Part shown: positions 15,143 to 64,000 of the stretch, piece by piece | Position numbering within the stretch: position 1 is the first letter of the stretch | Layout: every line of letters starts with the position of its first letter | Origin: Gammaproteobacteria bacterium | GTDB lineage: Bacteria > Pseudomonadota > Gammaproteobacteria > Burkholderiales > Gallionellaceae | Assembly: GCA_018819205.1 (NCBI GenBank) | Contig: JAHJQE010000036.1 | Location: 1,587-65,586 of the forward strand | DNA length: 64,000 nt | Direction of reading: 5' to 3' | Position numbers and translations under genes: made by a program | The notes under the pieces: model-generated | What the model saw: only the letters and a program-made list of their open reading frames with translations | What the model was told of the DNA's origin: nothing | Databases searched by the model: none

Positions 15143-15772
15143 ATGACCCGGATCAAGATATGCGGTATCACCCGTGAACAAGACCTGCTGGCTGCGGTGG
15201 CGGCAGGGGCGGATGCGCTCGGTTTCGTGTTCTATGCCAAAAGTCCGCGCAATATCGATACACGGCAGGCTGCTGAGCTGCTTGCAGTATTGCCCCCTTT
15301 CGTGACCAGTGTCGGTCTGTTCGTCGATCCTTCGGCCGATATGGTGCGTGAGGTACTGGCGCAAGCGCCGCTGGATGTGTTGCAGTTCCATGGCGATGAA
15401 ACGCCGGAATTCTGCCGTCAGTTCGGGCGCCCTTATTTGAAGGCGATACGCGTCAGGGCGGGGGTGGATTTGGTAGAATGCGCGGCCCGTTACGCGGATG
15501 CTCAGGGGCTGTTGCTGGATGCCTATGTGCAAGGCGTGCAGGGTGGCACCGGTGAGTCGTTCGACTGGGGGTTGATCCCGCAAGACTTGTCTTTGCCGGT
15601 GATCCTTTCCGGCGGGCTGCATCCCGGCAATGTGGCCGCAGCGGTGCAACAGGTACGGCCTTATGCGGTGGACGTGTCCAGCGGTGTCGAGGCAGGCAAA
15701 GGTATAAAGGATGCGGCGAAGGTCGCCGCATTCATCAAAGAGGTTAAGAACGTTGACATACAGTTATCCTGA
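15143..15772 (+). CDS. trpF: Phosphoribosylanthranilate isomerase
   Basis: [31 protein letters not shown]. Confidence 0.98.
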
Positions 15773-51393: not shown

Positions 51394-51421
51394 AAAAAGG
51401 CGACCGGTAGGTCGCCTTTTT
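51394..51421. terminator. Bidirectional intrinsic terminator between purL and convergent gene
   Basis: AAAAAGGCGACC-GGTA-GGTCGCCTTTTT. Confidence 0.9.
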
Positions 51422-51438
51422 ATTGGAGCTAACAAAAT

Positions 51439-52221
51439 TTACAAACTCTCTACATTTGAACCGTTCTTTGTAGCTGTGGTACGCAAGGATTTTGATGCGG
51501 CTTTCGCAATTTTCTTTCGTGCTTCATCTGCTTTTTCGCCTTCAATTACTTCACGTTTTATGACTTCATTCAGGAGTACATCTTTTATTTGCTCAATATC
51601 GATGCGTACATCCGGAGAAATACGGTGCAATTCCCGGCGAATGATTTTTAGAACATCGTCTGTTTGAAGCATGGCTCCGACAAAAAATCGGGAGAGAGCT
51701 TGTTGCTGATTGTGATATTCGCCAAGAACAGAATGTTGCCAGCCTTCTTTACACCATAGGTAAAGCATTTCAAGATCGTGCTGGCTGCGAATATTCAAGG
51801 TGGTAAAGTCAATATTGACTACTAATTCACTAGAAATGGGTTTTGAAAAAGTCAGGTGATAAACGCGCCAGCAGATACCGTTTGTGAGCAATACCCAATC
51901 CACCCCTTGATTGGCTGCGTAATCGACCGCTTGTTTAACATGCTGGTCCTTTAAGTCCAATCCAATGGCTTTTACTTCAATAAGGGTTTGCAGACGACCA
52001 TTTACTTTGGTGGCTAAATCACAATAAGTACCCCTGATAGCATATTCGGAAGTTAGCTCAGAGTATTTGTCGTATCCAAAGATATCTTGGAACATATCCT
52101 TGATGATCGTGACAGTATCCGCTTCACCTACATCACGTGATTTCGCGGCTTCAAGAATTGGTTGGTATTTTTTGATGCCACTTACCAGTCGCTCAGCAAC
52201 TTTCTTTGGAATAGAAGCCAT
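51439..52221 (-). CDS. Stand-alone HsdR N-terminal-like PD-(D/E)xK nuclease
   Basis: EADT...CDL...LIEVK...QAVDY...LLTNG; visibly AT-richer than core genes. Confidence 0.8.
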   Translation of the reverse strand: MASIPKKVAERLVSGIKKYQPILEAAKSRDVGEADTVTIIKDMFQDIFGYDKYSELTSEYAIRGTYCDLATKVNGRLQTLIEVKAIGLDLKDQHVKQAVDYAANQGVDWVLLTNGICWRVYHLTFSKPISSELVVNIDFTTLNIRSQHDLEMLYLWCKEGWQHSVLGEYHNQQQALSRFFVGAMLQTDDVLKIIRRELHRISPDVRIDIEQIKDVLLNEVIKREVIEGEKADEARKKIAKAASKSLRTTATKNGSNVESL

Positions 52222-52284
52222 CGTTTTCCCCTTTTGCGAACAAGTTATGTGCTAACACTGTTCCCGTCAGTGCGGGAATCACGT

Positions 52285-52406
52285 CTTGCGCCAGCCTCCT
52301 GTTCCGGGGATTTCGCTGCGTGCCTCGCGCCGTTCGTGCGGGGCGATGTGCGTTGAGCGAATCTGCAAGTGCTCGAACTCTAGGACAGCGGTGCGGGCGG
52401 TGTCAA
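52285..52406 (-). ncRNA. Repeated promoter-leader module, copy 1
   Basis: TTGACA-N18-TAGAGT then structured core 52285-52369. Confidence 0.75.
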
Positions 52407-52445
52407 TCGATGTTTGCACCGCTAGGTTTCCTGTCCCGCTAACTG

Positions 52446-53054
52446 TCAGAAATTGTAGATGCCTATGTAGTGCGTGGTTTTCTGCTGTTCGTCCTTGATG
52501 GCGGTGATGGTGAGCCAGAAGGGGTGGAGGATGCGACCGTCCTTGTTCTTGATGCGTATCTCGCCGCACCATGAACCTCTTTCATGCAGTCGCTTCCACA
52601 TCTGTTCATAGAAGGGTTTGTCATGCATGCCGGATTTGAAGATACGCGGATTCTTTCCTACGATCTCGTCCATGGTGTAGCCTGATTTGGTCAGGAACTT
52701 CTCGTTGGCCCGGATGATGTTGGCATCGGCATCGGTGATGATGGTGGGGTCCTTGATCTCGAAAGCGACAGCGGCGATGCGCAGATCATCCTCTATCAGT
52801 CTGGATTCGGCGATGCGTCTGATCAAAGGCCTGAAGATCAGATAGTAGAAGAAGGGGAAGAGCAGCAGAGACAGCAAAGCGGAATCCAGCAAGGTGCTGT
52901 TCATTCTGCTCATGGGTGGGAGCAGACGCACCACTTCCATCACGAACGCTTCGCTGAAAAACACTGCCGCGATCAGGATGATCAGCAGTCTCTTTACCGA
53001 CTGATGGGTTTCTTTTTTTTGATGCTCTTGCGGAGCTGATAGATGATTGGACAT
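52446..53054 (-). CDS. 2-TM plus PAS sensor protein with no output domain
   Basis: IITDADANIIRAN, GKNPRIFKSG, WCGEIRIKNKDG; ends right at PAS C-terminus. Confidence 0.8.
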   Translation of the reverse strand: MSNHLSAPQEHQKKETHQSVKRLLIILIAAVFFSEAFVMEVVRLLPPMSRMNSTLLDSALLSLLLFPFFYYLIFRPLIRRIAESRLIEDDLRIAAVAFEIKDPTIITDADANIIRANEKFLTKSGYTMDEIVGKNPRIFKSGMHDKPFYEQMWKRLHERGSWCGEIRIKNKDGRILHPFWLTITAIKDEQQKTTHYIGIYNF

Positions 53055-53219
53055 GGTGGCCTCGCTGTTATTTGATCGTCATGCAGACAAACCGGCGACA
53101 TTCATGATTCTTCCGGGTGCGATGTGAGGCCGGTGTGTTTGCGTTCGGGTGTTTTCACATTGCTTAACAGTCCGTGCGTGCGCTGCGAAGTAAGTAGAGC
53201 GCATCAGCGACCTGATTGA

Positions 53220-53248
53220 ACTGTAGGCCTGGTGGTCACGACTGTCAA
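53220..53248 (-). promoter_or_regulatory. Putative sigma70 promoter of the PAS gene
   Basis: TTGACA-N17-TACAGT. Confidence 0.55.
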
Positions 53249-53332
53249 CGCTGCAAACAGGGTTGTGTGATCTGGGTTGATTGATACACTTCGCGCATGG
53301 CCCTGTGGGCATCCATACGAAGAGGCGTGCAC

Positions 53333-53989
53333 ATGAAAAAGGAATTCTGGCTGGAGCGGTGGGAGCGCGCGGAGATCGGCTTCCATCAGGAGGAAGTGAA
53401 TCCGTATTTGCTGAAGTATTGGGGCGAGTTACATGAGGCAAAGGGCGGCGAAGTGTTCGTTCCTTTGTGCGGCAAGAGCCTGGATATGCTGTGGCTGCGC
53501 CAGCAGGGGCATGATGTGCTGGGTGTGGAACTGAGTCCGATCGCGGTGCGCGATTTCTTTGCCGAGAGCAATCTGACGTTGACGCATACAAGCGAAGGCC
53601 ACTTCGATCGTTGTGAGGCGGATGGTATCCGTATCCTGTGCGGTGATTTCTTCGAACTGTCACGCGATCATCTGTCGCGGGTGAGTGCGGTGTTCGACCG
53701 TGCCTCGCTGGTGGCGCTGCCGCCGGAGATGCGCGAACGCTATGCGCGCCACCTGGCGGAGATATTGCCTTCCGGTACGCAGACCCTGCTGGTGACGTTC
53801 GATTATCCGCAGCAGGAGATGCCGGGGCCGCCATTCGCGGTGTCGGTGGAGGAGGTGCGGGCGCTCTACAGCGCGTATGCCGATATCCGTTTGCTGGCGC
53901 AGGAGGATATCCTGGATCGTGAACCGCGCTTCAAGGTGCGCGGTGTGACGAGGATGCAGGAGAACATCTTCTTGCTGACGATCAACTAG
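53333..53989 (+). CDS. tpm: Thiopurine S-methyltransferase
   Basis: FWLERW, VPLCGKSLDM, FDRASLVALP, GPPFAV. Confidence 0.93.
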   Translation: MKKEFWLERWERAEIGFHQEEVNPYLLKYWGELHEAKGGEVFVPLCGKSLDMLWLRQQGHDVLGVELSPIAVRDFFAESNLTLTHTSEGHFDRCEADGIRILCGDFFELSRDHLSRVSAVFDRASLVALPPEMRERYARHLAEILPSGTQTLLVTFDYPQQEMPGPPFAVSVEEVRALYSAYADIRLLAQEDILDREPRFKVRGVTRMQENIFLLTIN

Positions 53990-54072
53990 TTCCCATGTTG
54001 AGGTTGGCGTATCGACAGGTGATGGTTTACATGCCTTGCCCGTGGTCGATCAGCCTGATTTGGTGAGTGCGC

Positions 54073-55092
54073 TTAACGATAAGCCCCGCATCGGCTGTAT
54101 GCGGCATGAGTGGTCACGTTAGGTATGGTCAGTTGTTGATTGACGCAGCTCCAGTATCTTTTTTCTTTCTGGAGGCTCATCTCTTCTGCTCGCTTTTCCT
54201 GTTGCAATCTGCGTTCTTCAGCTTGTTCGCGTTGCAGTCTTAACCTTTCTTGCTCGGTCTCATAGCGCCTTTCCTGTTCATATCTTTGCTGATCAAGTGT
54301 GCGTGTTCGCAATTCGTATTCCTGCCGTTGGCGCTCCATTGCTATTTCAGCTGCTGATTGCTTAATGTCGATATCTGCATAGGTTTCAACTCTATCTGTT
54401 TCGGTGGTGGCGTTGGCAAAATCGCGCTGGATATCTACGACTTCCTTCTGAATCGAATGTGAGTTCTTTGCCTTGAAAAAGTCGAGACCGAGGTATCCCA
54501 GCAGGACGAGAGAAAGTACTCCTATGACCACTGAACCTTTATGACCGGACAACCAAGTGGTGGCTTTTGGCAGGTCTTCATAATCGACCAGGTTATTCCT
54601 TCGCGTCATTTCATTGTTGACGCTTTCGAGGAGCTTGCGGTCATACTGTTCGCGCAAGCTCGGATCGCCCAATACCCTTTTTGCATAATTGAATTCCGAG
54701 ATGGAAGTTGCGGAAGCGATCTGATTATCCACTTCACGTTCAGCGATGGTTGAGGCGACCGTGGCATCCGATGCATCTGCGCCCAGTCCCAGCGTGATAT
54801 AGAGACTGGATTTCTTGGTTATGGCCAATTTCCGTTTGAGCTCGGCGCGCAATCTGTCTAATTCTGTGTTGCCTTGTGTGAAACTTGGCTGAATTGGATT
54901 GGAGTTGGTTGCCGGGACCGTATTCAGTGAGGGGGTTCGAAGCAGATCACGGTATCTGAGGCGGATATAGGCAGCTTTGGTTTTATCGATATCAGCGTCT
55001 GAAATTGCCAATGCTTGAGTCCAGATAGCCGGGTCGGTTTTATTCGACGCAAGTTCATCTGAAATGATTTGGTAATAGACCTTGTCTGACAT
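54073..55092 (-). CDS. Hypothetical membrane protein with degenerate J-like segment and coiled coil
   Basis: LYITLGLGADAS...VLGDPSLREQYD, one TM, E/R/Q-rich tail; AT-richer; start could be 55161. Confidence 0.7.
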   Translation of the reverse strand: MSDKVYYQIISDELASNKTDPAIWTQALAISDADIDKTKAAYIRLRYRDLLRTPSLNTVPATNSNPIQPSFTQGNTELDRLRAELKRKLAITKKSSLYITLGLGADASDATVASTIAEREVDNQIASATSISEFNYAKRVLGDPSLREQYDRKLLESVNNEMTRRNNLVDYEDLPKATTWLSGHKGSVVIGVLSLVLLGYLGLDFFKAKNSHSIQKEVVDIQRDFANATTETDRVETYADIDIKQSAAEIAMERQRQEYELRTRTLDQQRYEQERRYETEQERLRLQREQAEERRLQQEKRAEEMSLQKEKRYWSCVNQQLTIPNVTTHAAYSRCGAYR

Positions 55093-55367
55093 TTGTAATG
55101 TTCCAGGTTGGTAGCTGTCTGTCTTTCTTGGATGCAATTGTTTTTTTAGCTTGCATTCCAATGAATCCGAACTGTCAGGAAAATTAACATAAATCTCCGC
55201 AGTAAGTTTGTGGAAATATATCTATATATAGGGGCCTGCAGATATAGATATTGCATGGCAGAAAAAGAGTGCGGGATGGGCGTGAGACTGCATCTGGCAA
55301 GTCGCCGATGCAGATGCTCAGCACAATTTCATGGATGAATAGGCTGGATGCGATTCAAAATACATGG

Positions 55368-55943
55368 CTAAACGACAGTGAGCCCGAGCGAGCACCAGTC
55401 CTGCATGCCGCCGCGGTACCACTTCAATTTCACGGCGGGGTAGCCGAGTGCGAGCAGGGTGCGGATGTAGTTGGGCGTCTGGCCGCACCATGGGCCGTTG
55501 CAGAAGATGGCGAGGTTGCGGGCGTGGCTGAAGTCGAAACCTGCATTGATTTCTTCCACACCGAACAGCTCCAGCAATGTCTTTTTCACACCTGGCAGGT
55601 CGGTCGGTTGTCCGGCCATGTTCTGTACAAAGGGCACGTTCATCGAGCCGGGGATGGTGACTTTCTCATACCAGTCCGCTGTGCGTGAATCGATCACCAT
55701 GCATTGCGTGTCGCCCGCGTGGATGCGCTGCAGATAGTCCAGCATTTCCAGTTCGCCGAATGTCTCGACGCCCTCAGCCAGTCGCATCGGCTGGATGCAG
55801 TAGGGCGGGCAGGCGCGCGCGGTGGGCGCATACTCGGCACGGATGGTGGCGGAAGGGTCTTGTTCGCGCTGGATGGCGACGGGCTGGCCGTGGTGCAGCA
55901 CCGTAACCGTGGGCAGGCCCACGGTGATTTGGTATTCGGTCAT
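55368..55943 (-). CDS. Rhodanese-like sulfurtransferase (SoxL-like)
   Basis: CPPYCIQP, IDSRT, TIPGS, FCNGPWCGQT, WYRGGMQDW. Confidence 0.85.
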   Translation of the reverse strand: MTEYQITVGLPTVTVLHHGQPVAIQREQDPSATIRAEYAPTARACPPYCIQPMRLAEGVETFGELEMLDYLQRIHAGDTQCMVIDSRTADWYEKVTIPGSMNVPFVQNMAGQPTDLPGVKKTLLELFGVEEINAGFDFSHARNLAIFCNGPWCGQTPNYIRTLLALGYPAVKLKWYRGGMQDWCSLGLTVV

Positions 55944-56007
55944 GCATTGTTTCCGATGATGGTGTTAAACGGGATTGAGGGCCGTCAGGCCCGGCCTTCA
56001 TTGTTGG

Positions 56008-56166
56008 CTACCCACCGGCAGCTGCCTTTTCCTTGGCACATTCCGGGCAGCCTTCACTCGGCAGGAAGACCAGACCGTGCTTGGGGCAGCGTTGCAGGAT
56101 GACGGTCTTGCCGTCGTGCTCGCCTTCTTCGTTGATGATGATGGAGTCGTCGTCGGGGTGGGTCAT
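56008..56166 (-). CDS. 52-aa putative zinc-binding microprotein (below ORF-track cutoff)
   Basis: Hand translation MTHPDDDSIIINEEGEHDGKTVILQRCPKHGLVFLPSEGCPECAKEKAAAGG; GAGGAGG SD. Confidence 0.7.
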   Translation of the reverse strand: MTHPDDDSIIINEEGEHDGKTVILQRCPKHGLVFLPSEGCPECAKEKAAAGG

Positions 56167-56220
56167 GGTTTCCTCCTCTTTTAATGGAATGCGCCGTAAC
56201 GATCGCTACTTGGCTTTCAT

Positions 56221-56484
56221 TTAATCAGGGCCAAACAGTTCATCCAGCGGGTTCTTGCCAGTGGGTGCATAGGCAGATACTTTTTTCACTGTGAACTCTT
56301 CTTCGATGTTGTCGCGGAAGAAACTCCATGCCGCACCCGAACTGCTGAGCCTGCGCCAGAGGTCTTCTCCGACACCAAGATATTGCAATGTGTCGCCATT
56401 GTCGAGTTGAACTTGCAGCGTGCGCGCCCGTGCATCGTAGCCGATGGCGCGCAACTTGCCGGAGTTGATCTTCTTCATTTCCAT
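56221..56484 (-). CDS. KTSC domain protein
   Basis: SGKLRAIGYD...LQVQL...QY...WSFFRDNI. Confidence 0.85.
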   Translation of the reverse strand: MEMKKINSGKLRAIGYDARARTLQVQLDNGDTLQYLGVGEDLWRRLSSSGAAWSFFRDNIEEEFTVKKVSAYAPTGKNPLDELFGPD

Positions 56485-56504
56485 GCGCCTGCTCCTTCAG
56501 TGGT

Positions 56505-57398
56505 TCACTGCAGGATAAACGAAGTCTTCAACGGCAGGTTGATGTGTCCGACGTTGTCCTTGAGGGTGATGCTGACTTGCCACACACCGTACGGATCGTT
56601 CTGTTCACCGATGAATTTGATGATCGGCGCTGAGAGGTAGAGATAGTTCGGCTGGCCTTTGAGTGTACCTTTGAAACAAGTGGCATCAGTCTGCTGGAAT
56701 GAGGCAATACCGTCCGGTTTGCGCAGGTCGATATCGCATGTGATATCGGCAACCCCACGATCGTCGAGTTTGGGGTTGCTGAAGAAGGTGAGGGCGTAGA
56801 CGGGCTTACCTTTTGAGATGGTTTCGGCCATGCTGAAGTGCGGGATGGAGGCAGGCTCTGTTTTCCATTTCCTTTCCCAGTCGGTATCAGCGGTGACGAG
56901 CAGCCAACCGCCAAATCCATTCTGAACTTTTCTGGAATCGGAATCTGGTTCTAAGCGTCCCTGAGCGTCTTTCCACCCTGAGTCGAGTCTTTTGAGCTGG
57001 ATCTGGACGGGTTGCGACATCATCATCAGCGCGACCAGGGTGTATTCCTTTTCGCCGGGACGGAAGATGGAATCTTGCCGACAGAACGCGAACGCGTGGT
57101 TATGGACGCAGGAAGGATGGGTATCGTTCAGTTCGTTCTCGCTAAAGAAGCGTGCCAAGTCGTGCGCTTTGGACTCTTTCAGCAGGCAGTTGCGCGCACA
57201 GGTGGCGCTGGCCCAAGTGCCGTCCGGTTGGCGTTGCTCGACATTCCACTGGCCCTCGTTATGCGAGACGAAGAAGGTGAAGTCGGTGATGTGTCCGTCA
57301 CGATGCATTACGGCGTAGTTGCCGCTGTCTGTTTGATCGAGCGCGGATGCGTTAAGCATGAAGCTGAAGAGCGCGAAAAATGCTATGCGGTGAATCAT
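56505..57398 (-). CDS. Secreted hypothetical protein (start re-set to MIHRIAFF)
   Basis: AAAGGGG SD, signal-peptide-like N-terminus; the ORF-track upstream extension crosses the leader module. Confidence 0.7.
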   Translation of the reverse strand: MIHRIAFFALFSFMLNASALDQTDSGNYAVMHRDGHITDFTFFVSHNEGQWNVEQRQPDGTWASATCARNCLLKESKAHDLARFFSENELNDTHPSCVHNHAFAFCRQDSIFRPGEKEYTLVALMMMSQPVQIQLKRLDSGWKDAQGRLEPDSDSRKVQNGFGGWLLVTADTDWERKWKTEPASIPHFSMAETISKGKPVYALTFFSNPKLDDRGVADITCDIDLRKPDGIASFQQTDATCFKGTLKGQPNYLYLSAPIIKFIGEQNDPYGVWQVSITLKDNVGHINLPLKTSFILQ

Positions 57399-57459
57399 GA
57401 AGTCCCCTTTATTGCGAACTGGATCAATCTGGCTGCTCCCGTCATGGCGGGAATCATGT

Positions 57460-57580
57460 CTTGCGCCAGCCTCCTGTTCCGGGGATCTCGTCTTTGGCCC
57501 CACACCGTGCATGCGGTGCGATGTGCCTTGTACGAACTGCAAGTTGTGTATGAATGTAGGGGGAAGTAGGGGAGCTGTCA
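57460..57580 (-). ncRNA. Repeated promoter-leader module, copy 2
   Basis: TTGACA-N16-TACATT then structured core 57460-57543. Confidence 0.75.
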
Positions 57581-57606
57581 ATGGATGAGGAAGTACCATT
57601 TCCGTG

Positions 57607-59973
57607 CTAGGTGGGGGCGTATACGAATATCCGGTCACGCCCGGCCTCTTTCGCCCGGTACATGGCGCTATCGCCCCGGCTGAGGATGTCGTACTGATTG
57701 TCTGACTTGCCATCGAATAGCGTGACACCGATGCTGCTGGTGCATTCGTGGGTGACGGCGATCTTCTCGTCTCCCTTGACACGGGTCAGGTTATAGGGCT
57801 CAGCCAAGGCTGCGGCGATCTTCTCTGCGACGACGTAAGCCTGTTGCCGCATCTCTTCCTTGCTGCTGGATAGATCACCCAGTACGACTACGAATTCGTC
57901 ACCACCATAGCGGGCGACCGTGTCGATCTCACGCACGGTAGAGGTGAGGCGCTGGGAGACTTCAATAAGCAACTGGTCGCCGACTTCGTGCCCGCATTGG
58001 TCATTGATGGGTTTGAAGTTATCCAGATCGAGGAACAGCAAGGCGCCGTAGGCATCGTTGCGTTTGCTGTTGGCGAGTGACTTCGAGAGTCTGTCGCTCA
58101 GCATGCGCCGGTTGGGAAGGTGGGTGAGCGGATCGAAGAATGCCAGGGAATAGATCTCCTGCTCGGTCTCCTTGCGTTTGCTGATGTCGCGGCAGAAGGC
58201 GATGTTGTATTCGAGTTCGCCGAACTGCACATGGTTGGCGGAGACTTCGACCGGGATGATGCTGCCATCCTTGCGCCTGTGCCGGGTCTCGAACAGCTGC
58301 GTCTTGTCTTGTTTGAGTTCTTCCCAGTGGGCCTTCCAATGATCGACCGGGAAGTCCGGATCCAGATCCGGGATGGAGAGTTTCATCAATTCTTCCCGGT
58401 TGTAGCCCAGTGTCGAGCAACCCTGGTTGTTGACGTAGCGGATGTTGCCATCCTTATCCAGCCAGTAGATGGCATCGAACGCCTTGTCCATGGCGAACTT
58501 GGAGAGTTGGAGTTGAACTTCCGACTCTTTTTGGTCGTTGATGTCGACACAGCTGCCGATGTAGCCGAGGAACAGGCCTTTGCTATCGTAACGAGGAACG
58601 CCGTGGTCGACGATCCAGCGGTATTCACCTGTGTGATGACGCAGGCGATATTCCAGTGTGAATGGCCGTCGCGCATCGAAGGCCAGGATATATGCGTGCA
58701 GACAATCTTCCCGGTCATCCTGATGAATGCCTTGAGTCCATCCATCTCCCAACTCCTGCTCCATCTTGCGACCTGTGAAGTCCAGCCAGACCTGATTGAA
58801 ATAGATGGATTTCTTGTCGGTCCCGGCGATCCAGATCATCACGGATTCGTTCTTGGCCAGTACACGCAGGTTCTCTTCGCTCTTGCGTAATTCTGAAACG
58901 GCAGTTTCGGCTTTGTTCAGAGCTGCGCGCGACTGCGTAAGTGCTGTGATCAGGAAATAAAGCAGGATGCTGGTAATAGTGCCACCGAAGAAGATCATCC
59001 GGGCCTTGCTGTAGTCCAGTCCTTCTTTGTGGGGGGCAAGATGTTCCGATACCAGCGTCCATTCGTGTCCGCCGAATTCGAGCCGTTGCTGGATGATGAA
59101 AGGCTTGGCCGTCTGGTCTTTCTTTTTGAGGTTGGAGTAGAGCAGTGCATCCCGGCCGAGATGTGTTCCATCATAGATGCTGATCTGAAGAGGCGTGATT
59201 TTGCCTTCCGGTTTAGCTGCGCTAAGGGCATTCTCGACCATGTCTTTCATGCGGAAGGGGCTGTATACCCAGCCTTCCAGTGCGGCACGACGCTGTGCTA
59301 CGGTTTCGTGCGGCATACCTTTTCGATAATGCGGGAGATACATCAGAGTGCCTGCCTGCACATCCTCCGTGGTCTCTTGTACCAGCTTAACTTTTCCGGA
59401 AAGCGCTATGGCGTTCGTGTCGCGCGCGCGCTCCATTGCAGTGCGACGGGTGGGTTCGGAGTACATGTTGTAGCCGAATGCGCGCAAATTGCGTCCGCTG
59501 AACGGCTCCAGGTAGAGGATGGAGGTATAAGCGTCCAGATCCTGTTTCGGCCACACTTCGTATTCGGGGAATCCTTCGCGGCGTACCGATGCGATGTGGG
59601 AAGCGAGCTGATCGCGATGTATCCACTGGGCGTAGCCCAAGCCCTGCACACTCTTGAAATGATCGTTCAACTCTATGCGACTGGCGTAGCGTTGCCATTC
59701 ATCGCGCGTCACTTTGGATGAGGAATCGAGGAAGGCGGCGGCACCGATCAGTACTTGTTCATGCGAGCTCAGGGTGGCCAACAGATGCATGCGCACCTCA
59801 TCGGCATCTGCGGCAAAGTGTTCGATCGCGATCTTGTCCGCATCGACCTTGGCTTCGTAGCTTAAATACAAGGTGATAGCCAAGCCTGCAAGCATGGCTA
59901 CAAAGGCATACTTGCAGAATTGGCTCACATCTGCCAAGTGCATGGCGGATTTATCAAGCTGCTTTGCAAGCAC
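57607..59973 (-). CDS. CHASE-PAS-PAS-GGDEF diguanylate cyclase (probable GTG start)
   Basis: CHASE GLGYAQW/YLEPFSGRNLRAFGY, two PAS, intact GGDEF with RxxD I-site (REID). Confidence 0.93.
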   Translation of the reverse strand: MLAKQLDKSAMHLADVSQFCKYAFVAMLAGLAITLYLSYEAKVDADKIAIEHFAADADEVRMHLLATLSSHEQVLIGAAAFLDSSSKVTRDEWQRYASRIELNDHFKSVQGLGYAQWIHRDQLASHIASVRREGFPEYEVWPKQDLDAYTSILYLEPFSGRNLRAFGYNMYSEPTRRTAMERARDTNAIALSGKVKLVQETTEDVQAGTLMYLPHYRKGMPHETVAQRRAALEGWVYSPFRMKDMVENALSAAKPEGKITPLQISIYDGTHLGRDALLYSNLKKKDQTAKPFIIQQRLEFGGHEWTLVSEHLAPHKEGLDYSKARMIFFGGTITSILLYFLITALTQSRAALNKAETAVSELRKSEENLRVLAKNESVMIWIAGTDKKSIYFNQVWLDFTGRKMEQELGDGWTQGIHQDDREDCLHAYILAFDARRPFTLEYRLRHHTGEYRWIVDHGVPRYDSKGLFLGYIGSCVDINDQKESEVQLQLSKFAMDKAFDAIYWLDKDGNIRYVNNQGCSTLGYNREELMKLSIPDLDPDFPVDHWKAHWEELKQDKTQLFETRHRRKDGSIIPVEVSANHVQFGELEYNIAFCRDISKRKETEQEIYSLAFFDPLTHLPNRRMLSDRLSKSLANSKRNDAYGALLFLDLDNFKPINDQCGHEVGDQLLIEVSQRLTSTVREIDTVARYGGDEFVVVLGDLSSSKEEMRQQAYVVAEKIAAALAEPYNLTRVKGDEKIAVTHECTSSIGVTLFDGKSDNQYDILSRGDSAMYRAKEAGRDRIFVYAPT

Positions 59974-60028
59974 TCGTTTCCCCCTGGTGTGGACAAGTAA
60001 CGGCTGCAACCCTATTCAGGAATACTTC

Positions 60029-60150
60029 CTTGCGCCAGCCTCCTGTCCGGGAATCTCGTTGTCCTTACTGCACCGTACTTGCGGTGGAGTTTGAGGGCCT
60101 CGAATCTGCAAGTCGTACTAAACTCTATGGGGTGTATGAAGATGTGTCAA
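60029..60150 (-). ncRNA. Repeated promoter-leader module, copy 3
   Basis: TTGACA-N17-TAGAGT then structured core 60029-60112. Confidence 0.75.
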
Positions 60151-60193
60151 TGATACGACTGCATTTATAAACCATTCAGTAAAAGAGGTTTGC

Positions 60194-60727
60194 ATGAAGC
60201 TGATATTGGTCCGTCACGGCGAGAGCGAAGGTAATGTGAAGCATGTGATCAATGACGATCCCATGCGTGCCGTCGCGCTGACGGAGAGAGGCAGGGCTCA
60301 AGCTGTGGCCGCTGCAGAACGATTGCAGGGAATACGGTTCACTCATGCCTATGTTTCCGAGTTCACGCGTGCCCGGCAGACGGCAGCCATCCTGTTGCGG
60401 CAACATGGGCTCGTACCTGTGGTCGATGCACGATTGAACGAGCGGATATCAGGCATGGATGGTCTGCATGTCGATGTGTTCAACGACCTCGTGCGAGAAG
60501 ACTATCTGCATACCAAGCCACCCGGAGGCGAGTCCTTTCTGGAGCAGATGGCACGGATACGCAGTTTCCTTGATGAGATATCGCATCGCCATCCTGATGG
60601 CATCGTGCTGGTGGTCTCGCACGAGAATCCCATCGTTGCCGCGCTGACGCTGAAGAGTACAACACCGGAATCAGCGTGCCTGCAAAAGCTGGATAACTGC
60701 GAATCGGTGGTGCTGGACTGGCCTTAG
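60194..60727 (+). CDS. Histidine phosphatase superfamily protein
   Basis: VRHGES, RARQTA, GGESF, LVVSH. Confidence 0.92.
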   Translation: MKLILVRHGESEGNVKHVINDDPMRAVALTERGRAQAVAAAERLQGIRFTHAYVSEFTRARQTAAILLRQHGLVPVVDARLNERISGMDGLHVDVFNDLVREDYLHTKPPGGESFLEQMARIRSFLDEISHRHPDGIVLVVSHENPIVAALTLKSTTPESACLQKLDNCESVVLDWP

Positions 60728-61023
60728 GTCGGCGGTTCGATCTTGCGCAGCAGGGCGATACGGCGTGTTTCGGCGATCTTTAGCCAGAGCACGACTGATG
60801 CCAGCAGCAGTGTGATGCTGTTCGCCGCGATCACCGGCAGGCTGCCGATGGCGATTCCGTAGCCCAGCCAGAGGGCAACTCCCAATGTGAATAGGGTATA
60901 CATCGGCAGTGAGATGCCGGCGAGGTTGCGGGTGCGCCAGGATTGCCAAGCCTGCGGCACGAAAGCGATAGTGGTGAGGAAGGCGGCGGGGTAGCCAAAC
61001 AGGTTGCTGAGTTCGGTCGTCAT
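60724..61023 (-). CDS. SemiSWEET / PQ-loop transporter
   Basis: LTTIAFVPQAW, GISLPMY, LWLGYG, VIAAN. Confidence 0.9.
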   Translation of the reverse strand: MTTELSNLFGYPAAFLTTIAFVPQAWQSWRTRNLAGISLPMYTLFTLGVALWLGYGIAIGSLPVIAANSITLLLASVVLWLKIAETRRIALLRKIEPPT

Positions 61024-61103
61024 GGCGGGCTGCTTCGTATTCCTTTCCGCCGGCAGGCGGGTGGGCGCATTCTACCCAACACCATACTCTTGCGCAGCAT
61101 GCT

Positions 61104-61232
61104 TCAATGCCCGTCGTAGAGACTCTCGAAATCGCGGAAGAAGTGTTCCAGAACTTTGGCGCGCTTGACCTTCAGCGTCGGGGTGAGCAGGCCGTTGTCC
61201 ATGCTCTAGGCTTCGCCCAGCAGTGCCAAGCG
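61104..61232 (-). pseudogene. C-terminal remnant of a long-chain acyl-CoA synthetase with in-frame TAG
   Basis: RLALLGEA*SMDNGLLTPTLKVKRAKVLEHFFRDFESLYDGH*; TAG at the usual Trp position. Confidence 0.75.
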
Positions 61233-61292
61233 GCAGGCAGGGCGCGTTCCTGAAAGGTGGCGGTTCAGTGTTGGCCGTACTTGGCAAAACTA

Positions 61293-62099
61293 TCAGGTCT
61301 TGTCTACGTAATTGACGGGCGCGTGGTCGCCAAACGGCTTGGGGGGGCGCATCCATCCTAACAGCCAGTCCATCCAGCCGCGCGAAGCGGGCGCTTCAAG
61401 TGTCTGCAACTTTCCGATATGTCGGAAGCCAAGTGCCTCGGGGGGTACAGTCGCGACGATGTCCTCACCGTACACGACGCGGTGGATGCTTTCGGCCATG
61501 CCATCGAGTGACGCGACGAATTCTTCATCGCCCACACGCGGGGAGCCGAAGGTGTAGAGCGCGGTCGGTGCGATGCGTGCGGCGGCCAGCGTAGCCAATG
61601 CAGCGCCCAAACTGTGGCCGGTGAAGAATAACGGACATTGCAGCCGCTTTAGTGCGCGTTCGATGTCAACCCACACGCTGTCGAGTGCCTGGGTGAACCC
61701 GGTATGGGTATCAATCTTGCCGTCGTTGTTGCGCAGGTATCCTACTGTGAGATCGGTGACGAGATCCTTGATGTGCAGTTCGGTGCCGCGAAAGACGAGC
61801 ACGGCGAATGGCGCAACAGTCCCGAATTCCAGCAACATGGCCTGCGTATCAGTCTTGCGCGAGAAGAAGAACTGTCTGCGGGTACAGCCGGCCTTTTTCA
61901 GAAACAGGGTCTGGGTAGGTTGTGTTGGTGAGTCAGTCTCCTCCGCGTCGTGGCGATAGATCAGACGGCTGAGTTCGGCAAGCCAGTGGGCGTTGCCGCT
62001 TTTGTAGCTGCGTGTGCTGGGATCGAACGGAGGTAGAGGCCGACGCGAGAAGAAATCCCTGGCGTCGCCGGGATGTAACAGTTCGTTCCAGGTTGCCAT
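61293..62099 (-). CDS. Lipase class 3 family protein
   Basis: VLVFRGT, HTGF, GHSLG, YTFGSPRVG, DIVATVP, DH. Confidence 0.92.
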   Translation of the reverse strand: MATWNELLHPGDARDFFSRRPLPPFDPSTRSYKSGNAHWLAELSRLIYRHDAEETDSPTQPTQTLFLKKAGCTRRQFFFSRKTDTQAMLLEFGTVAPFAVLVFRGTELHIKDLVTDLTVGYLRNNDGKIDTHTGFTQALDSVWVDIERALKRLQCPLFFTGHSLGAALATLAAARIAPTALYTFGSPRVGDEEFVASLDGMAESIHRVVYGEDIVATVPPEALGFRHIGKLQTLEAPASRGWMDWLLGWMRPPKPFGDHAPVNYVDKT

Positions 62100-62120
62100 A
62101 TCTTCCTTTCAATATGTGTA

Positions 62121-63143
62121 TCAGACGACCGCCAGATCGTAGCCCATGTTCTTGAATATGCTCGAGAGCTGTTTGATGCCGAAGCGTTCCTGTTCTTTCA
62201 CCGCCTGTTGGAAGCGGTACCAGTGGGTGCTTTCGCGTGTGCTGCTGTCACGCCAGTGATATCGATCCTTGAACAGGGTGAAGCCGTGCAGCAATCCGTC
62301 CGGGTTGTCTTTCATGCCGCGCACTTCTGTTTCGATGGCTGCGTCGAACCACACTGTCTCGTCGAACTCCGGGAACCAGTCCAGACGTTTCCTGTAGCTG
62401 CTGAGGCGCGCATCCTGATAACGCAGTTCGTCGCCGGTATAGGTCTGCCCACCGATGGTGATGAGATCGCTTTCCAGCAACGGCCACTGAGCGGAATGAT
62501 CCGGATTCCCCTCGCTGACTTGGTAACTGCAGTAGCGTTTGAACAAGGCCTCGGCGGCATCGATGAAACGGTTGCGGTTGCTGATCTCGTCATCGACCAG
62601 ACGGTTGTCTATCCATTCATGGCAGACCCAGTCGGGATGGTGGCCGCCGGGCGCGTGGCCGATGGCGGGGACGGGTTTGAGCTCGATCTGGTTGTAGTGG
62701 TCGTACCAGCCGACGAAGTTCTGGTGCGCCCAGGTATCCACGAAGCTGTGGGAGGCGATGCCGATGCGATACAGGCGGGTATCGGTATGCGCCTTTAACG
62801 CATCGTCCAGCATGGCGTTCGCATGTTCGTTGTTCGGCGTGGTGTTGAGCAGATGCATTTTGCCGTCGCGTCGGCGGGCGGTATAGGCCATCGGGTCGCC
62901 AGGGATGAAGTGGAAGATGGGATAGATGCGCATCAGGCTGTCCTTGGGCTTGAGGATGTTCATCGTTTGGCTCATGAAATTGATGTAGGGCCGCAATTTT
63001 CCGGAGCGATCCAGAATCTCGTGGCTGATGTCGTTCTCGTCGACGTATTCGGACGCGTAGGCGATGGTGAGTGAATCTTCCTTGCTGAAGCCGGCACGAT
63101 GTGCGACCAGCCCGGTGAGCCAATAGTGGAATTCGATGTCCAT
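62121..63143 (-). CDS. DUF6765-like protein, possible Zn-dependent phospholipase C/P1 nuclease fold
   Basis: MDIEFHYW...ASEYVD...FHFIPG...GIASHSFVDTWAHQNF...IGHA; family name from memory. Confidence 0.65.
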   Translation of the reverse strand: MDIEFHYWLTGLVAHRAGFSKEDSLTIAYASEYVDENDISHEILDRSGKLRPYINFMSQTMNILKPKDSLMRIYPIFHFIPGDPMAYTARRRDGKMHLLNTTPNNEHANAMLDDALKAHTDTRLYRIGIASHSFVDTWAHQNFVGWYDHYNQIELKPVPAIGHAPGGHHPDWVCHEWIDNRLVDDEISNRNRFIDAAEALFKRYCSYQVSEGNPDHSAQWPLLESDLITIGGQTYTGDELRYQDARLSSYRKRLDWFPEFDETVWFDAAIETEVRGMKDNPDGLLHGFTLFKDRYHWRDSSTRESTHWYRFQQAVKEQERFGIKQLSSIFKNMGYDLAVV

Positions 63144-63203
63144 GCGTTTCCCCTTTTGTGACAGTTCGGTCTGACGGAATCTCCTCTGATTCGGAAATGT
63201 CGT

Positions 63204-63323
63204 CTTGCGCCAGCCTCCTGTCCGGGGATCCCGTTGCCAGTCTTGCACCGTACCTGCGGTGCAATGTTCTTGGGCGGGATTGCAAGCTGTGCTGAATGTA
63301 GGGGAGGTGGTCTTCGAAGTCAA
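63204..63323 (-). ncRNA. Repeated promoter-leader module, copy 4
   Basis: TTGACT-N17-TACATT then structured core 63204-63286. Confidence 0.75.
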
Positions 63324-63413
63324 TCAGGAGCGATGCGTATCGGCATAAATGTCGATCTTGGCATCGGTATAATGTGTCGCTGTTTCCTGGTTCAACTCTT
63401 ATCTGGAGTCATC

Positions 63414-64000
63414 GTGTTCAAGCTTATCGCTATCGTAGTCGGCTATATATTTTTCGGATGGATGGGGGCTTTCTTCGGCCTGATCCTGGGCGCGGTCATC
63501 GATCGTATCCGCGCATTCGGCCAGGGAGCGCTGAATCCCCTGCATGCCGCATTACGGCAGACGGTGTTTCTGGAGACGGTGTTCATTGCCATGGGCAGGT
63601 TGGCCAAGGCAGACGGGCGCGTGTCGGAAGCGGAGATCGCGCATACCGAGGCGTTGATGCAGAAACTGGGCATGACGCCTGAGCATCGCCAGCAGGCCAT
63701 CGCGCTTTTCAAGAAGGGCGCTGCGGGTGATGGTGACATGTATGCGGCGTGCAAGAAGTTCATGTCGGTATGCGGCCATACCCATCACTTGAAAGAGATG
63801 CTGCTGGTCTATCTGATTGTGATGGCGATGGCGGACGGGGAATACCATCCGGAAGAAGAGAAGCTGCTGATGGAGATCGCCGGGCATCTTGGCTATGGGC
63901 CGGAAGCTTTCAGGCGACTGCTGGATATGGTGGTGAACCAGACGCATTTCGCAGGCGGTCAGGCGAACAGTGAGACTGCGCTGGAGGATGCCTACAAGGC
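63414..64000 (+). CDS. djlA: Co-chaperone DjlA (partial, GTG start)
   Basis: Hand translation VFKLIAIVVGYIFFGWMGAFFG...AMGRLAKADGRVSEAEI...AMADGEYHPEE...ALEDAYK; TerB-like domain leading into J domain. Confidence 0.88.
   Translation, partial: MFKLIAIVVGYIFFGWMGAFFGLILGAVIDRIRAFGQGALNPLHAALRQTVFLETVFIAMGRLAKADGRVSEAEIAHTEALMQKLGMTPEHRQQAIALFKKGAAGDGDMYAACKKFMSVCGHTHHLKEMLLVYLIVMAMADGEYHPEEEKLLMEIAGHLGYGPEAFRRLLDMVVNQTHFAGGQANSETALEDAYK

What the first reader, a model, noticed from the sequence alone, without database searches (positions are those of the whole stretch)
52285..63323. Four-copy promoter plus structured leader RNA: candidate new cis-regulatory RNA class
Seen on the minus strand, 5'-3'. 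Copy 1: CTTGCAGATTCG ctcaacgcacat CGCCCCG CACGAA CGGCGCG aggcacgcag CGAAAT CCCCGGAACAGGAGGCTGGCGCAAG. Copy 2: CTTGCAGTTCG tacaaggcacat CGCACCG CATGCA CGGTGTG gggccaaaga CGAGAT CCCCGGAACAGGAGGCTGGCGCAAG. Copy 3: CTTGCAGATTCG aggccctcaaac TCCACCG CAAGTA CGGTGCA gtaaggacaa CGAGAT TCCCGGACAGGAGGCTGGCGCAAG. Copy 4: CTTGCAATCCCG cccaagaacat TGCACCG CAGGTA CGGTGCA agactggcaa CGGGAT CCCCGGACAGGAGGCTGGCGCAAG. Each starts 7-9 nt after a TTGAC(A/T)-N16-18-TA(G/C)A(G/T)T promoter. CTTGC/GCAAG closes the fold; the second stem covaries (TTCG/CGAA, TTCG/CGAG, CCCG/CGGG); the apical loop is always CANGNA. Conservation begins at the predicted start site and the spacers of the promoters are unrelated, which points to RNA-level selection rather than recent duplication. 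I cannot match it to any riboswitch, ribozyme or sRNA I recall. Inference: an orphan riboswitch, protein-binding leader or antitermination element.
Basis: partly seen in the sequence, partly recalled or inferred. Interest (0 to 1): 0.92.

Follow-up and report, generated by a model that had tools for sequence, protein, structure and literature searches.

The report
Four-copy switchable mRNA leader RNA
Four unrelated operons in this Gallionellaceae-type genome each start with the same ~85-nt structured RNA leader, which can fold in two mutually exclusive ways, one of which buries the ribosome-binding site. It matches no catalogued RNA family and is best read as a new riboswitch-type translational control element whose signal is unknown.

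Summary
There are four copies on the minus strand, each 7-9 nt downstream of a near-consensus sigma-70 promoter, and chance expectation is zero. Rfam 15 gives no match even at E<=10.

I collected about 40 further copies. All come from Sideroxydans, Gallionella and related betaproteobacterial MAGs, at 3-5 or more per genome and at syntenic loci. On 35 distinct sequences, helices P2 and P3 covary strongly. P1 and P4 are almost invariant and show only wobble-compatible changes.

The invariant 3' block (AUCCCC-GGA(A)CAGG-AGGCUGGCG) is complementary to downstream sequence that ends in the Shine-Dalgarno GGGGA. This gives a long alternative helix that excludes P1/P4 and has its own compensatory changes. 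No terminator is present, so control is translational, not antitermination. Enforcing P1+P4 lowers the modelled cost of opening the ribosome footprint in 34 of 34 leaders.

The core is conserved while the platforms differ between lineages, as in riboswitches.

Regulated genes:
- a CHASE-PAS-GGDEF cyclase
- a sensor kinase
- DUF6765 plus a lipase
- a secreted beta-sandwich protein
- an HsdR_N-like protein

The effector (small molecule or protein) is unknown, and no transcript data exist.

Verdict: a genuine new cis-regulatory RNA family and a riboswitch candidate.

The parts
52377..52406 (-). Copy 1 promoter: TTGACA, 18-nt spacer, TAGAGT. The -10 hexamer ends 7 nt before the element.
   Evidence: 10 of 12 positions; the -35 ATTGACA and the A at -1 are conserved across 35 copies
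52285..52369 (-). Copy 1 conserved core (85 nt): P1 52365-52369/52285-52289; P2-P3 arm with apex CCGCACGAACGG at 52330-52341; anti-SD AUCCCC at 52306-52311; P4 plus loop CCGGAACAGGAGGCUGG at 52291-52307.
   Evidence: (101.9 bits)
52219..52284 (-). Copy 1 expression platform: P5 hairpin (52255-52284), partner tract UAGCACAUAACUUGUUCGCAAAA (52232-52254), SD AGGGGA (52227-52232), ATG (52219-52221).
   Evidence: (duplex z = -4.6)
51439..52221 (-). Gene regulated by copy 1: 260-aa protein with an HSDR_N_2 (restriction-endonuclease-like) domain.
   Evidence: the ortholog behind the same leader type is at L091:5162 and L143:5801
57553..57581 (-). Copy 2 promoter: TTGACA, 17-nt spacer, TACATT.
57460..57543 (-). 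Copy 2 conserved core (84 nt): apex CCGCAUGCACGG at 57505-57516; AUCCCC at 57481-57486; P4 plus loop at 57466-57482.
   Evidence: (96.7 bits)
57396..57459 (-). Copy 2 expression platform: P5 (57434-57456), partner tract GCCAGAUUGAUCCAGUUCGCAAUAAA (57408-57433), SD (57403-57408), ATG (57396-57398).
56505..57398 (-). Gene regulated by copy 2: 297-aa secreted protein with no Pfam family, predicted as tandem beta-sandwiches. It is followed by a KTSC gene (56221-56484) and a rhodanese gene (55368-55943).
60122..60150 (-). Copy 3 promoter: TTGACA, 17-nt spacer, TAGAGT.
60029..60112 (-). Copy 3 conserved core (84 nt): apex CCGCAAGUACGG at 60073-60084; AUUCCC at 60049-60054; P4 plus loop CCGGACAGGAGGCUGG at 60035-60050.
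   Evidence: (82.2 bits)
59971..60028 (-). Copy 3 expression platform: P5 (60006-60025), partner tract AGCCGUUACUUGUCCACACCA (59985-60005), SD AGGGGG (59980-59985), GTG (59971-59973).
57607..59973 (-). Gene regulated by copy 3: 788-aa CHASE-PAS-PAS-GGDEF diguanylate cyclase.
63295..63323 (-). Copy 4 promoter: TTGACT, 17-nt spacer, TACATT.
63204..63286 (-). Copy 4 conserved core (83 nt): apex CCGCAGGUACGG at 63248-63259; AUCCCC at 63224-63229; P4 plus loop at 63210-63225.
   Evidence: (84.5 bits)
63141..63203 (-). Copy 4 expression platform: P5 (63174-63203), partner tract CAGACCGAACUGUCACAAAA (63154-63173), SD (63149-63154), ATG (63141-63143).
   Evidence: (z = -4.2)
61293..63143 (-). Operon regulated by copy 4: DUF6765 protein (62121-63143, 340 aa) and a class-3 lipase (61293-62099).
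   Evidence: the same gene pair lies behind the leader in L152

Best explanation
Each copy is the 5' leader of an mRNA made from its own strong sigma-70 promoter, with transcription probably starting at the A just before CUUGCA. The first ~85 nt form a sensor domain. P1 (CUUGC/GCAAG) encloses two elements: a long P2-P3 arm with an almost invariant apex CCG-CANGNA-CGG, and a short P4 hairpin (CCGG/CUGG) that displays A(A)CAGGAGG.

The 3' half of this domain is also complementary to the downstream leader. AUCCCC pairs with the Shine-Dalgarno GGGGA. GGA(A)CAGG pairs with CUUGU(U)C. GGCUGGCG pairs with a CCAGC/CCGGC/UUAGC tract. The P5 hairpin sits at the apex. This long helix and P1/P4 cannot coexist.

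Proposed mechanism: an effector stabilises the P1/P4 fold, which is transcribed first. The effector is most likely a small molecule, which would make this a riboswitch. Stabilising P1/P4 keeps the anti-SD block engaged and leaves the ribosome-binding region open, so translation is ON. Without the effector the leader relaxes into the more stable long helix and translation is OFF.

Shown: the repeats, the promoter matches, P2/P3 covariation, complementarity and compensatory changes of the long helix, absence of terminators, and platform diversity around a constant core. Inferred: the transcription start site, that P1/P4 form, the ON direction, and the existence and nature of a ligand.
For: 1. 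The repeats are real and specific.
2. About 40 further copies were found, only in Sideroxydans, Gallionella and related MAGs. All have the same promoter, core and SD architecture.
3. On 35 distinct sequences, 92.1% of cells are paired and 14 pairs carry double changes. None of 500 shuffles reached the observed values, and sliding the partners gives only 35-41% pairing. Six of 6 P2 pairs and 6 of 8 P3 pairs covary.
4. G-U pairs outnumber A-C 76 to 28, which identifies the sense strand.
5. Unconstrained MFE folds of full leaders give the same nested long helix in about 30 of 34 cases.
6. The duplex between the 3' block and the post-P5 tract beats dinucleotide shuffles, with mean z = -2.3 and many values below -3.5.
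7. The long helix has compensatory changes. CUGG->CCGA in L091:5162 and L143:5801 is matched by UUAGC->UCGG downstream. GGACAGG leaders have a GUC partner in 10 of 10 cases, and G/AGAACAGG leaders have GUUC in 20 of 24.
8. Enforcing P1+P4 lowers the footprint-wide opening energy from 14.5 to 8.9 kcal/mol, in 34 of 34 leaders.
9. No terminator lies in the leaders.
10. The core is constant while platforms differ. In L152/L143 the P1 5' strand is itself the anti-SD/anti-start. In L149:9041 a ~100-nt insertion replaces P5.
11. The P3 apex and junction nucleotides are invariant although they take no part in either switch helix, which implies specific recognition.
12. Lengths of 83-86 nt with 1-nt indels exclude coding.
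Against: P1 and P4 show no double compensatory change. The only variation is wobble-compatible on one side: five U-G/G-U cells in P1, and in P4 seven G-U->A-U and two G-U->G-C, plus two C-A mismatches.

The family is phylogenetically narrow, so the invariance could partly reflect shared ancestry.

The long helix is about 9 kcal/mol more stable than the P1/P4 fold, so ON would require kinetic (co-transcriptional) control.

The opening energy of the SD hexamer alone hardly differs between the two ensembles, 4.8 versus 3.8 kcal/mol.

Four leaders lack the UCCCC anti-SD: L068:32, L104:5951, L143:284 and L143:2862.

The regulated genes do not point to any metabolite. No transcript data could be found. 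No ligand has been tested.
Confidence: 0.5

Rival explanations
1. Protein-binding leader. The same two-state leader is operated by an RNA-binding protein instead of a metabolite. One candidate is a CsrA/RsmA-type protein that recognises the invariant AGGA in the P4 loop and the GGA within the SD. Another is a regulon-encoded factor that binds the invariant P3 apex; the small KTSC-domain protein that always accompanies the 297-aa gene is a speculative candidate.
For: AGGA is retained in every P4-loop variant: AACAGGAGG, AUUAGGAG, GAUAGGAG and AACAGGAUGG. The SD GGGGA and the P5 3' arm also contain GGA. The regulated gene set resembles a lifestyle regulon more than a metabolic pathway. The P3 apex is invariant yet plays no role in either helix. 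A KTSC gene recurs in the regulon.
Against: CsrA targets do not normally share an 85-nt conserved multi-helix domain. The loop differs from the SELEX consensus RUACARGGAUGU (my own knowledge) by one nucleotide, and at 9-10 nt it is larger than usual. No csrA was found in the sequence held, but this is uninformative because whole genomes were not searched. RNA binding by KTSC is undocumented.
Confidence: 0.25
2. Effector-independent folding switch. The leader acts as a kinetic or thermal device. The nascent RNA adopts P1/P4 and is translated briefly, then refolds into the long helix. Alternatively, temperature or 5'-end processing shifts the equilibrium. No ligand or protein is needed.
For: The long helix is about 9 kcal/mol more stable than the P1/P4 fold, although the latter is transcribed first. 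Both folds are predictable from sequence alone.
Against: This does not explain the near-invariance of the P3 apex CCG-CANGNA-CGG, of the internal-loop A residues, or of the P4 loop across paralogs that diverged enough to covary elsewhere. The long interrupted helix of about 20 bp is much more stable than known thermometers. No Rfam thermometer family matches.
Confidence: 0.12
3. Shared target site for a trans-acting small RNA. The invariant 25-nt block or the 5' CUUGCAG strand would be bound by a conserved sRNA that opens or closes the long helix.
For: A perfectly conserved ~25-nt single-sequence block shared by unrelated mRNAs is what an sRNA regulon could look like.
Against: Both-strand scans of genome and metagenome collections with the block found only the leaders themselves and chance hits inside coding regions. 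No free-standing antisense copy appeared. The covarying P2-P3 arm is unnecessary in this model.
Confidence: 0.06
4. DNA-level feature. The element would be either a recently duplicated promoter cassette or mobile repeat, or an operator for a DNA-binding regulator downstream of the promoter.
For: The promoter and leader always travel together. Decayed or truncated copies exist at L013:2623, L127:8480, L121:1362 and L005:5573.
Against: The four loci are syntenic across genomes (window versus L152 and L143), so the duplications are old. Paralogs differ by compensatory and G-U-tolerant changes that make sense only in RNA of this strand. The block is not palindromic. Complementarity to the SD region is maintained with varying spacing.
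Confidence: 0.04

Closest known systems
Translational ON riboswitches with SD sequestration, e.g. the Vibrio vulnificus add adenine riboswitch (purine riboswitch, RF00167)
   Same: A P1-closed multi-helix sensor lies at the very 5' end of the mRNA. The 3' part of the sensor is also complementary to the ribosome-binding region. The two folds are mutually exclusive. There is no terminator. Closing P1 frees the SD in the model. The comparison with add rests on my own knowledge.
   Different: There is no sequence or structure match to RF00167 or to any Rfam family. The architecture differs: a long P2-P3 arm plus a 4-bp P4, not two kissing hairpins. The ligand is unknown. The competing helix is unusually long, about 20 bp, with an extra apex hairpin P5.
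c-di-GMP-I / GEMM riboswitch (RF01051) and its cGAMP-sensing variants
   Same: The regulon has a similar style: many copies per genome in front of signalling (GGDEF, sensor kinase) and secreted or envelope genes, not one biosynthetic pathway. What is said here about GEMM regulons is from my own knowledge.
   Different: cmscan gives no hit even at E<=10. There is no tetraloop-receptor architecture. Nothing links the element to a cyclic dinucleotide apart from the GGDEF gene.
CsrA/RsmA-bound mRNA leaders
   Same: A GGA motif is presented in a hairpin loop, and another GGA overlaps the SD. The genes controlled are heterogeneous lifestyle genes.
   Different: The conserved domain is 85 nt with covarying helices and an invariant second hairpin apex. 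Whether the host genomes carry csrA was not established.
Orphan riboswitch candidates from comparative genomics (Breaker/Weinberg-type motif catalogues, deposited in Rfam)
   Same: It is defined the same way: a recurring structured 5' leader with covariation, a conserved core, variable expression platforms and an unknown ligand.
   Different: It is not among the 4227 Rfam 15 families. Full-text searches for Sideroxydans, Gallionella or Gallionellaceae combined with riboswitch terms found no relevant paper. The distribution is very narrow.
RNA thermometers (ROSE, fourU)
   Same: The SD is paired with an upstream pyrimidine tract.
   Different: There is no Rfam match. The helix is far longer and more stable. 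An elaborate conserved domain exists that the thermometer mechanism does not need.

Membership tests
Any Rfam 15 family (4227 covariance models) | Score at or above the family's gathering threshold | tested here: not met
   no matches in the whole window at gathering thresholds.
Any Rfam 15 family (4227 covariance models) | Sub-threshold similarity (E<=10, permissive filters) at the four copies | tested here: not met
   only two chance snoRNA hits (E of 6-7), elsewhere in 52000-63500 and not at the copies.
Riboswitch (as a kind) | Conserved structured sensor domain supported by covariation | tested here: met
   P2 and P3 covary (14 pairs with double changes; none of 500 shuffles reached the observed values). 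P1 and P4 are only invariant or wobble-compatible, so the closing helices remain inconclusive.
Riboswitch (as a kind) | Expression platform whose structure is mutually exclusive with the sensor fold and covers the SD or a terminator | tested here: met
   a long helix between the 3' block and the tract ending in the SD, with compensatory changes. This evidence is computational only.
Riboswitch (as a kind) | Same sensor core joined to different expression platforms in different lineages or genes | tested here: met
   L152/L143 use the P1 5' strand against the SD and start codon, and L149:9041 has a ~100-nt apex insertion.
Riboswitch (as a kind) | Direct, protein-free binding of a small-molecule ligand | not testable with these tools
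   Needs in-line probing, ITC or similar experiments.
Riboswitch (as a kind) | The element is transcribed as part of the 5' UTR | tested here: inconclusive
   Promoter consensus lies 7-9 nt upstream. No RNA run holds the locus.
Transcription attenuator / antitermination leader | Intrinsic terminator (GC hairpin plus U-tract) between the element and the start codon | tested here: not met
   no minus-strand terminator-like site in 51400-63600. P5 is not followed by a U-run.
CsrA/RsmA target leader | GGA in a hairpin loop plus a GGA overlapping the SD | tested here: met
   AGGA is invariant in the P4 loop and GGGGA forms the SD. This is a resemblance only.
CsrA/RsmA target leader | A csrA-family gene in the host genome, and binding of the protein to the leader | not tested
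   tblastn of E. coli CsrA against the sequence held gave no hit, but whole genomes were not available.
Leader-peptide / uORF control | Conserved short ORF with a start codon in the leader | tested here: not met
   ATG or GTG after GCAAG is present in window copies 1 and 2 but absent in orthologs, for example L005 and L003.

The most novel reading that the evidence does not exclude
This is a previously undescribed riboswitch class, confined to Gallionellaceae-type iron oxidisers, that senses an as yet unidentified small molecule. Given the GGDEF cyclase and sensor-kinase targets, the molecule could be a nucleotide second messenger or a redox- or metal-related metabolite. The switch would turn on translation of a dedicated regulon comprising a diguanylate cyclase, a hybrid kinase, phospholipase- and lipase-like enzymes and a secreted beta-sandwich protein.
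Probability: 0.45. Interest if true: 0.8.

Novelty: new variant of a known kind. Interest (0 to 1): 0.72.

Why it matters
If confirmed, this adds a new structured regulatory RNA class with an unknown effector. It would be found in a group of environmentally important, poorly tractable iron-oxidising bacteria for which almost no post-transcriptional regulation is known. The element defines a small regulon that includes c-di-GMP synthesis, a sensor kinase, lipid-modifying enzymes and an uncharacterised secreted protein. Identifying the effector would show which signal these organisms use to coordinate those functions. The leader is compact, its two folds are clearly predicted, and natural compensatory variants exist, so reporter and probing experiments are straightforward. 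The narrow distribution and the large number of existing orphan riboswitch candidates limit how general the significance is.

Tried and rejected
- **Rfam.** Searches at gathering thresholds and at E<=10 found nothing.
- **Transcript evidence.** Run searches with window and L122 sequences returned only DNA or metagenome assemblies, unrelated poly-A runs attached by species label, and groundwater metatranscriptomes with no coverage. There is therefore no support for the TSS or for transcription, and none against.
- **uORF in the leader.** The idea came from ATG/GTG after GCAAG in copies 1 and 2. I rejected it because orthologs lack a start codon there.
- **Terminator/attenuator.** No terminator-like site is present.
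- **SD-hexamer opening energy as the ON/OFF criterion.** It did not discriminate, 4.8 versus 3.8 kcal/mol. Only a footprint-sized window did.
- **CsrA or Hfq genes in the held sequence.** None found, which is uninformative.
- **PADLOC and NCBIfam on the regulated proteins.** Nothing useful beyond the GGDEF assignment.
- **AlphaFold plus Foldseek of the 297-aa protein.** The model is confident, but PDB matches to beta-sandwich folds (RhoGDI, RbmA) are weak, with TM about 0.3. This gives no clue to a ligand.
- **Leader upstream of more distant DUF6765 homologs.** Absent in a Nitrosomonadales MAG, a JGI contig and a Zetaproteobacteria contig. Also absent upstream of a 48%-identical homolog of the 297-aa protein in a prophage-like context.
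- **Literature searches.** Nothing relevant.
- **Pattern for the genome-contig scan.** The 18-nt pattern was too permissive.

Full report
**Observation**

The 24-nt block CCCGGAACAGGAGGCTGGCGCAAG, allowing up to 3 mismatches, occurs exactly four times in the 64-kb window. All four are on the minus strand, at 52285, 57460, 60029 and 63204. None of 100 dinucleotide-preserving shuffles produced a match. The conserved cores are 52285-52369, 57460-57543, 60029-60112 and 63204-63286.

Each core is preceded by a near-consensus sigma-70-type promoter: TTGACA or TTGACT, a 17-18 nt spacer, then TAGAGT or TACATT. The -10 hexamer ends 7, 9, 9 and 8 nt before CTTGCA. These four are among the five best promoter-like sites in 51.4-63.6 kb. 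A covariance model built later and run over the whole window with filters off finds only these four copies, at 82-102 bits; the next hit scores 16 bits.

**Is it a known RNA?**

cmscan of the whole window against Rfam 15 at gathering thresholds returns nothing. At E<=10 with permissive filters over 52000-63500 it returns only two chance snoRNA hits elsewhere. Full-text searches that combined Sideroxydans, Gallionella or Gallionellaceae with riboswitch or structured-RNA terms, and a search for DUF6765, found nothing relevant.

**Relatives**

Most were chance hits inside coding regions. Sixteen carried the complete element, all from Sideroxydans spp., Gallionellales or unnamed beta/gammaproteobacterial MAGs.
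- A metagenome scan with a pattern that left P1 free added ten more.
- Model R1 then found further copies in the same loci, including decayed ones.
- It also found more divergent copies upstream of homologs of the regulated proteins. These are in a Gallionella sp. MAG (L139), in L141, L143, L147 and L152, and three more in the MAG that also holds L017 (L149).

Every full copy has the same layout: ATTGACA-N17-TAnAnT, an A at -1, the core, a short hairpin (P5), a spacer, AAGGGGA, and a start codon.

The element was absent upstream of more distant DUF6765 homologs in a Nitrosomonadales MAG, a JGI contig and a Zetaproteobacteria contig. It was also absent upstream of a 48%-identical homolog of the 297-aa protein. 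The family therefore appears confined to a sub-lineage of Gallionellaceae-like bacteria, with at least 3-5 copies per genome. The four-operon cluster of the window is syntenic in L152 and L143, so the duplications are old.

**Structure of the core**

On the model-based alignment of 35 distinct sequences (A5), the proposed structure has five helices: P1, P2, a 2-bp P2a, P3 and P4.
- 92.1% of cells are paired, against 84.3% in column shuffles and 35-41% when partners are slid by 1-3 columns.
- Fourteen pairs carry changes on both sides.
- None of 500 shuffles reaches the observed values.
- All six P2 pairs and six of eight P3 pairs covary.

P1 (CUUGC/GCAAG) and P4 (CCGG/CUGG) are nearly invariant. 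P1 shows five wobble-compatible one-sided changes. P4 shows G-U->A-U in seven sequences and G-U->G-C in two, and those two sequences also acquire a C-A mismatch. P1 and P4 are therefore plausible but not proven.

G-U pairs outnumber A-C 76 to 28, so the structure belongs to the sense strand of the downstream genes. Length differences of single nucleotides (83-86 nt) rule out a coding function.

The following are almost invariant: the apex CCG-CANGNA-CGG (a 7-nt loop in three sequences), two A residues in the internal loop, and the block CC(G/A)G-A(A)CAGGA-GGCUGGCGCAAG.

Unconstrained MFE folding of the complete leaders, from the predicted TSS to the start codon, does not give P1/P4. It gives a long nested helix:
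- AUCCCC pairs with the SD GGGGA.
- GGA(A)CAGG pairs with a downstream CUUGU(U)C.
- GGCUGGCG pairs with a downstream CGCCAGC, GCCGGC, GUUAGC or CGUCAG tract.
- P5 sits at the apex.
- The P2-P3 arm is unchanged, and the P1 5' strand is free.

This fold appears in about 30 of 34 leaders. Topologically it cannot coexist with P1, and it competes directly with P4.

The complementarity exceeds chance. The duplex between the 3' block and the post-P5 tract has mean z = -2.3 against dinucleotide shuffles, and many values lie between -3.5 and -5.6.

The long helix is maintained by compensation:
- The partner tract differs in sequence and spacing among paralogs but always pairs, using G-U where needed.
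- The two leaders in which the block changed from CUGG to CCGA (L091:5162, L143:5801) have UCGG instead of UUAGC downstream.
- All ten leaders with GGACAGG have a GUC partner, and 20 of 24 with G/AGAACAGG have GUUC. One apparent exception, L149:9041, has its GUUC partner further downstream.

No terminator-like hairpin with a U-tract lies on the minus strand in any leader. Control therefore acts on translation initiation, not on transcription termination.

**Direction of the switch**

The free ensemble is on average 9 kcal/mol more stable than the ensemble with P1+P4 enforced. The core alone folds into P1-P2-P3(-P4) in most cases. The opening energy of the SD hexamer alone is similar in the two ensembles, 4.8 versus 3.8 kcal/mol. 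The energy to open a ribosome-footprint-sized window falls from 14.5 to 8.9 kcal/mol when P1+P4 are enforced, and it falls in all 34 leaders (Wilcoxon p = 1e-10).

I infer that stabilising the P1/P4 fold turns translation ON, and that the long helix is the default OFF state. Because the OFF state is much more stable, the decision would have to be taken co-transcriptionally.

**Modularity**

In the L143/L152 lineage the AUCCCC tract is replaced by A(U/C)ACC. There the P1 5' strand plus the start of P2 (CUUGCAGUUCCC) is complementary to the SD and start region (GGGGACUGCAUG). In L149:9041 the same long helix is kept but a ~100-nt insertion replaces P5. A constant sensor core joined to different expression platforms is the pattern seen in riboswitches. 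It also argues that the core has a function of its own beyond carrying an anti-SD.

**Regulated genes**

In the window:
- a 260-aa HSDR_N_2-domain protein;
- a 297-aa secreted protein with no known family, followed by KTSC and rhodanese genes;
- a 788-aa CHASE-PAS-PAS-GGDEF diguanylate cyclase;
- a DUF6765 protein followed by a class-3 lipase.

In other genomes the leader also precedes:
- a MASE1-PAS-HisKA hybrid kinase;
- a DUF2167 protein;
- an operon with an acyltransferase, CDP-diglyceride synthase, a metallophosphoesterase and a CHAT protease;
- a 464-aa secreted protein.

PADLOC and NCBIfam add nothing. The 297-aa protein gives a confident AlphaFold model (pLDDT 84.8) of tandem beta-sandwiches, with only weak PDB similarity to RhoGDI and V. 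cholerae RbmA (TM about 0.3). This gene set points to signalling and envelope or lifestyle functions, not to a metabolic pathway. It gives no clear ligand hypothesis.

**What it most likely is**

I am confident (about 0.8) that this is a cis-acting, two-state 5' leader controlling translation initiation. The effector is open. A small-molecule riboswitch is the leading reading (0.45-0.5), for three reasons:
- the invariant junction and apex nucleotides are not used in either switch helix;
- the sensor core is modular with respect to its expression platform;
- the multi-copy regulon has the same style as second-messenger riboswitches.

A protein effector is a serious rival (0.25). The invariant AGGA in the P4 loop, together with a GGA in the SD, resembles CsrA/RsmA sites. 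The invariant P3 apex could be a protein recognition hairpin. Whether csrA is present could not be checked. An effector-free kinetic or thermal switch, an sRNA target site and a DNA-level explanation are each less likely, for the reasons given under the rivals.

**Limits**
- No transcript data could be found.
- P1 and P4 lack true compensatory covariation.
- The family is narrow and the sequences are related, so shuffle statistics overstate independence.
- All energy arguments are thermodynamic models.

**Comparison and novelty**

Mechanistically the closest known systems are translational ON riboswitches, such as the V. vulnificus add adenine riboswitch (my own knowledge). In regulon style the closest is the c-di-GMP-I/GEMM class. 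The element is not a member of either family, nor of any Rfam family. I classify it as a new variant of a known kind: a new RNA family that works by a familiar principle. I score interest at 0.72. It is a solid, experimentally tractable orphan riboswitch candidate in an understudied group. The score is held down by the narrow distribution, the unknown effector and the many orphan candidates that already exist.

Noticed in passing
L013:2623-2701, L127:8480-8559, L121:1362-1449, L005:5573-5644: These are decayed or truncated copies of the leader. Two keep the promoter and P1-P3 but have lost the 3' block. One has the P4 block deleted so that AUCCCC runs straight into P5. One keeps only the 3' half plus P5. 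This suggests ongoing birth and death of copies.
   Followed up: partly
window 56221-56484 (minus); L139, L141, L143, L147, L148, L149, L152: A small KTSC-domain gene always lies downstream of the 297-aa secreted-protein gene. Between or after the two, different genomes carry different cargo: SIR2_2 plus a HerA-like ATPase, PDDEXK_4, CHAT plus an AAA_15 ATPase, or a transglutaminase plus a PhoD-like protein. This looks like a variable, partly defence-like insertion hotspot.
   Followed up: partly
window 56505-57398 (minus): The 297-aa protein has no Pfam, NCBIfam or PADLOC family, and only 48 clusters are found in 5.8 billion proteins. It gives a confident AlphaFold model of tandem beta-sandwiches with weak similarity to RhoGDI and to the V. 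cholerae biofilm matrix protein RbmA.
   Followed up: partly
L152:9876-10010 and 15431-15580; L143:2862-3010: In this lineage the anti-SD AUCCCC is lost. Instead the P1 5' strand (CUUGCAGUUCCC or UGCAG) is complementary to the SD and start-codon region (GGGGACUGCAUG or GCUGCAUG). The same sensor core has an alternative expression platform here.
   Followed up: partly
window 53220-53248 (minus): A fifth promoter-like site matches as well as the others (TTGACA, 17 nt, TACAGT; 10 of 12 positions) but has no leader element. It lies inside or next to the 251-aa ORF at 53079-53834.
   Followed up: no
window 56505-57782, 57607-60009, 62121-63323 (minus): The mechanical ORF list extends three regulated genes upstream through the leaders, using GTG or TTG starts. 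The conserved SD, the start codons and the 1-nt indels in the leader show that the shorter starts at 57398, 59973 and 63143 are the real ones.
   Followed up: yes
window 59909-59972 (plus): This is a weak model hit (16 bits, E = 0.015) on the opposite strand inside the start of the CHASE-GGDEF gene. It is caused by a CTTGCA...TGCAAG palindrome and is probably chance.
   Followed up: partly
L122:1113-1242 in run X43: In a metagenome assembly, at least six contigs end or overlap inside the leader, and summed word depth there is about 4 times that of the flanks. This fits a multi-copy repeat that breaks assemblies, so the element may be under-represented or mis-joined in MAGs.
   Followed up: no
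window 47472-51371 (plus) and 60194-60727 (plus): The cluster is bounded by purL (FGAR amidotransferase, convergent with copy 1's gene). It also contains a divergently transcribed histidine-phosphatase-family gene that shares the intergenic region with copy 3's promoter. The same neighbours are found in L152 and L143.
   Followed up: partly
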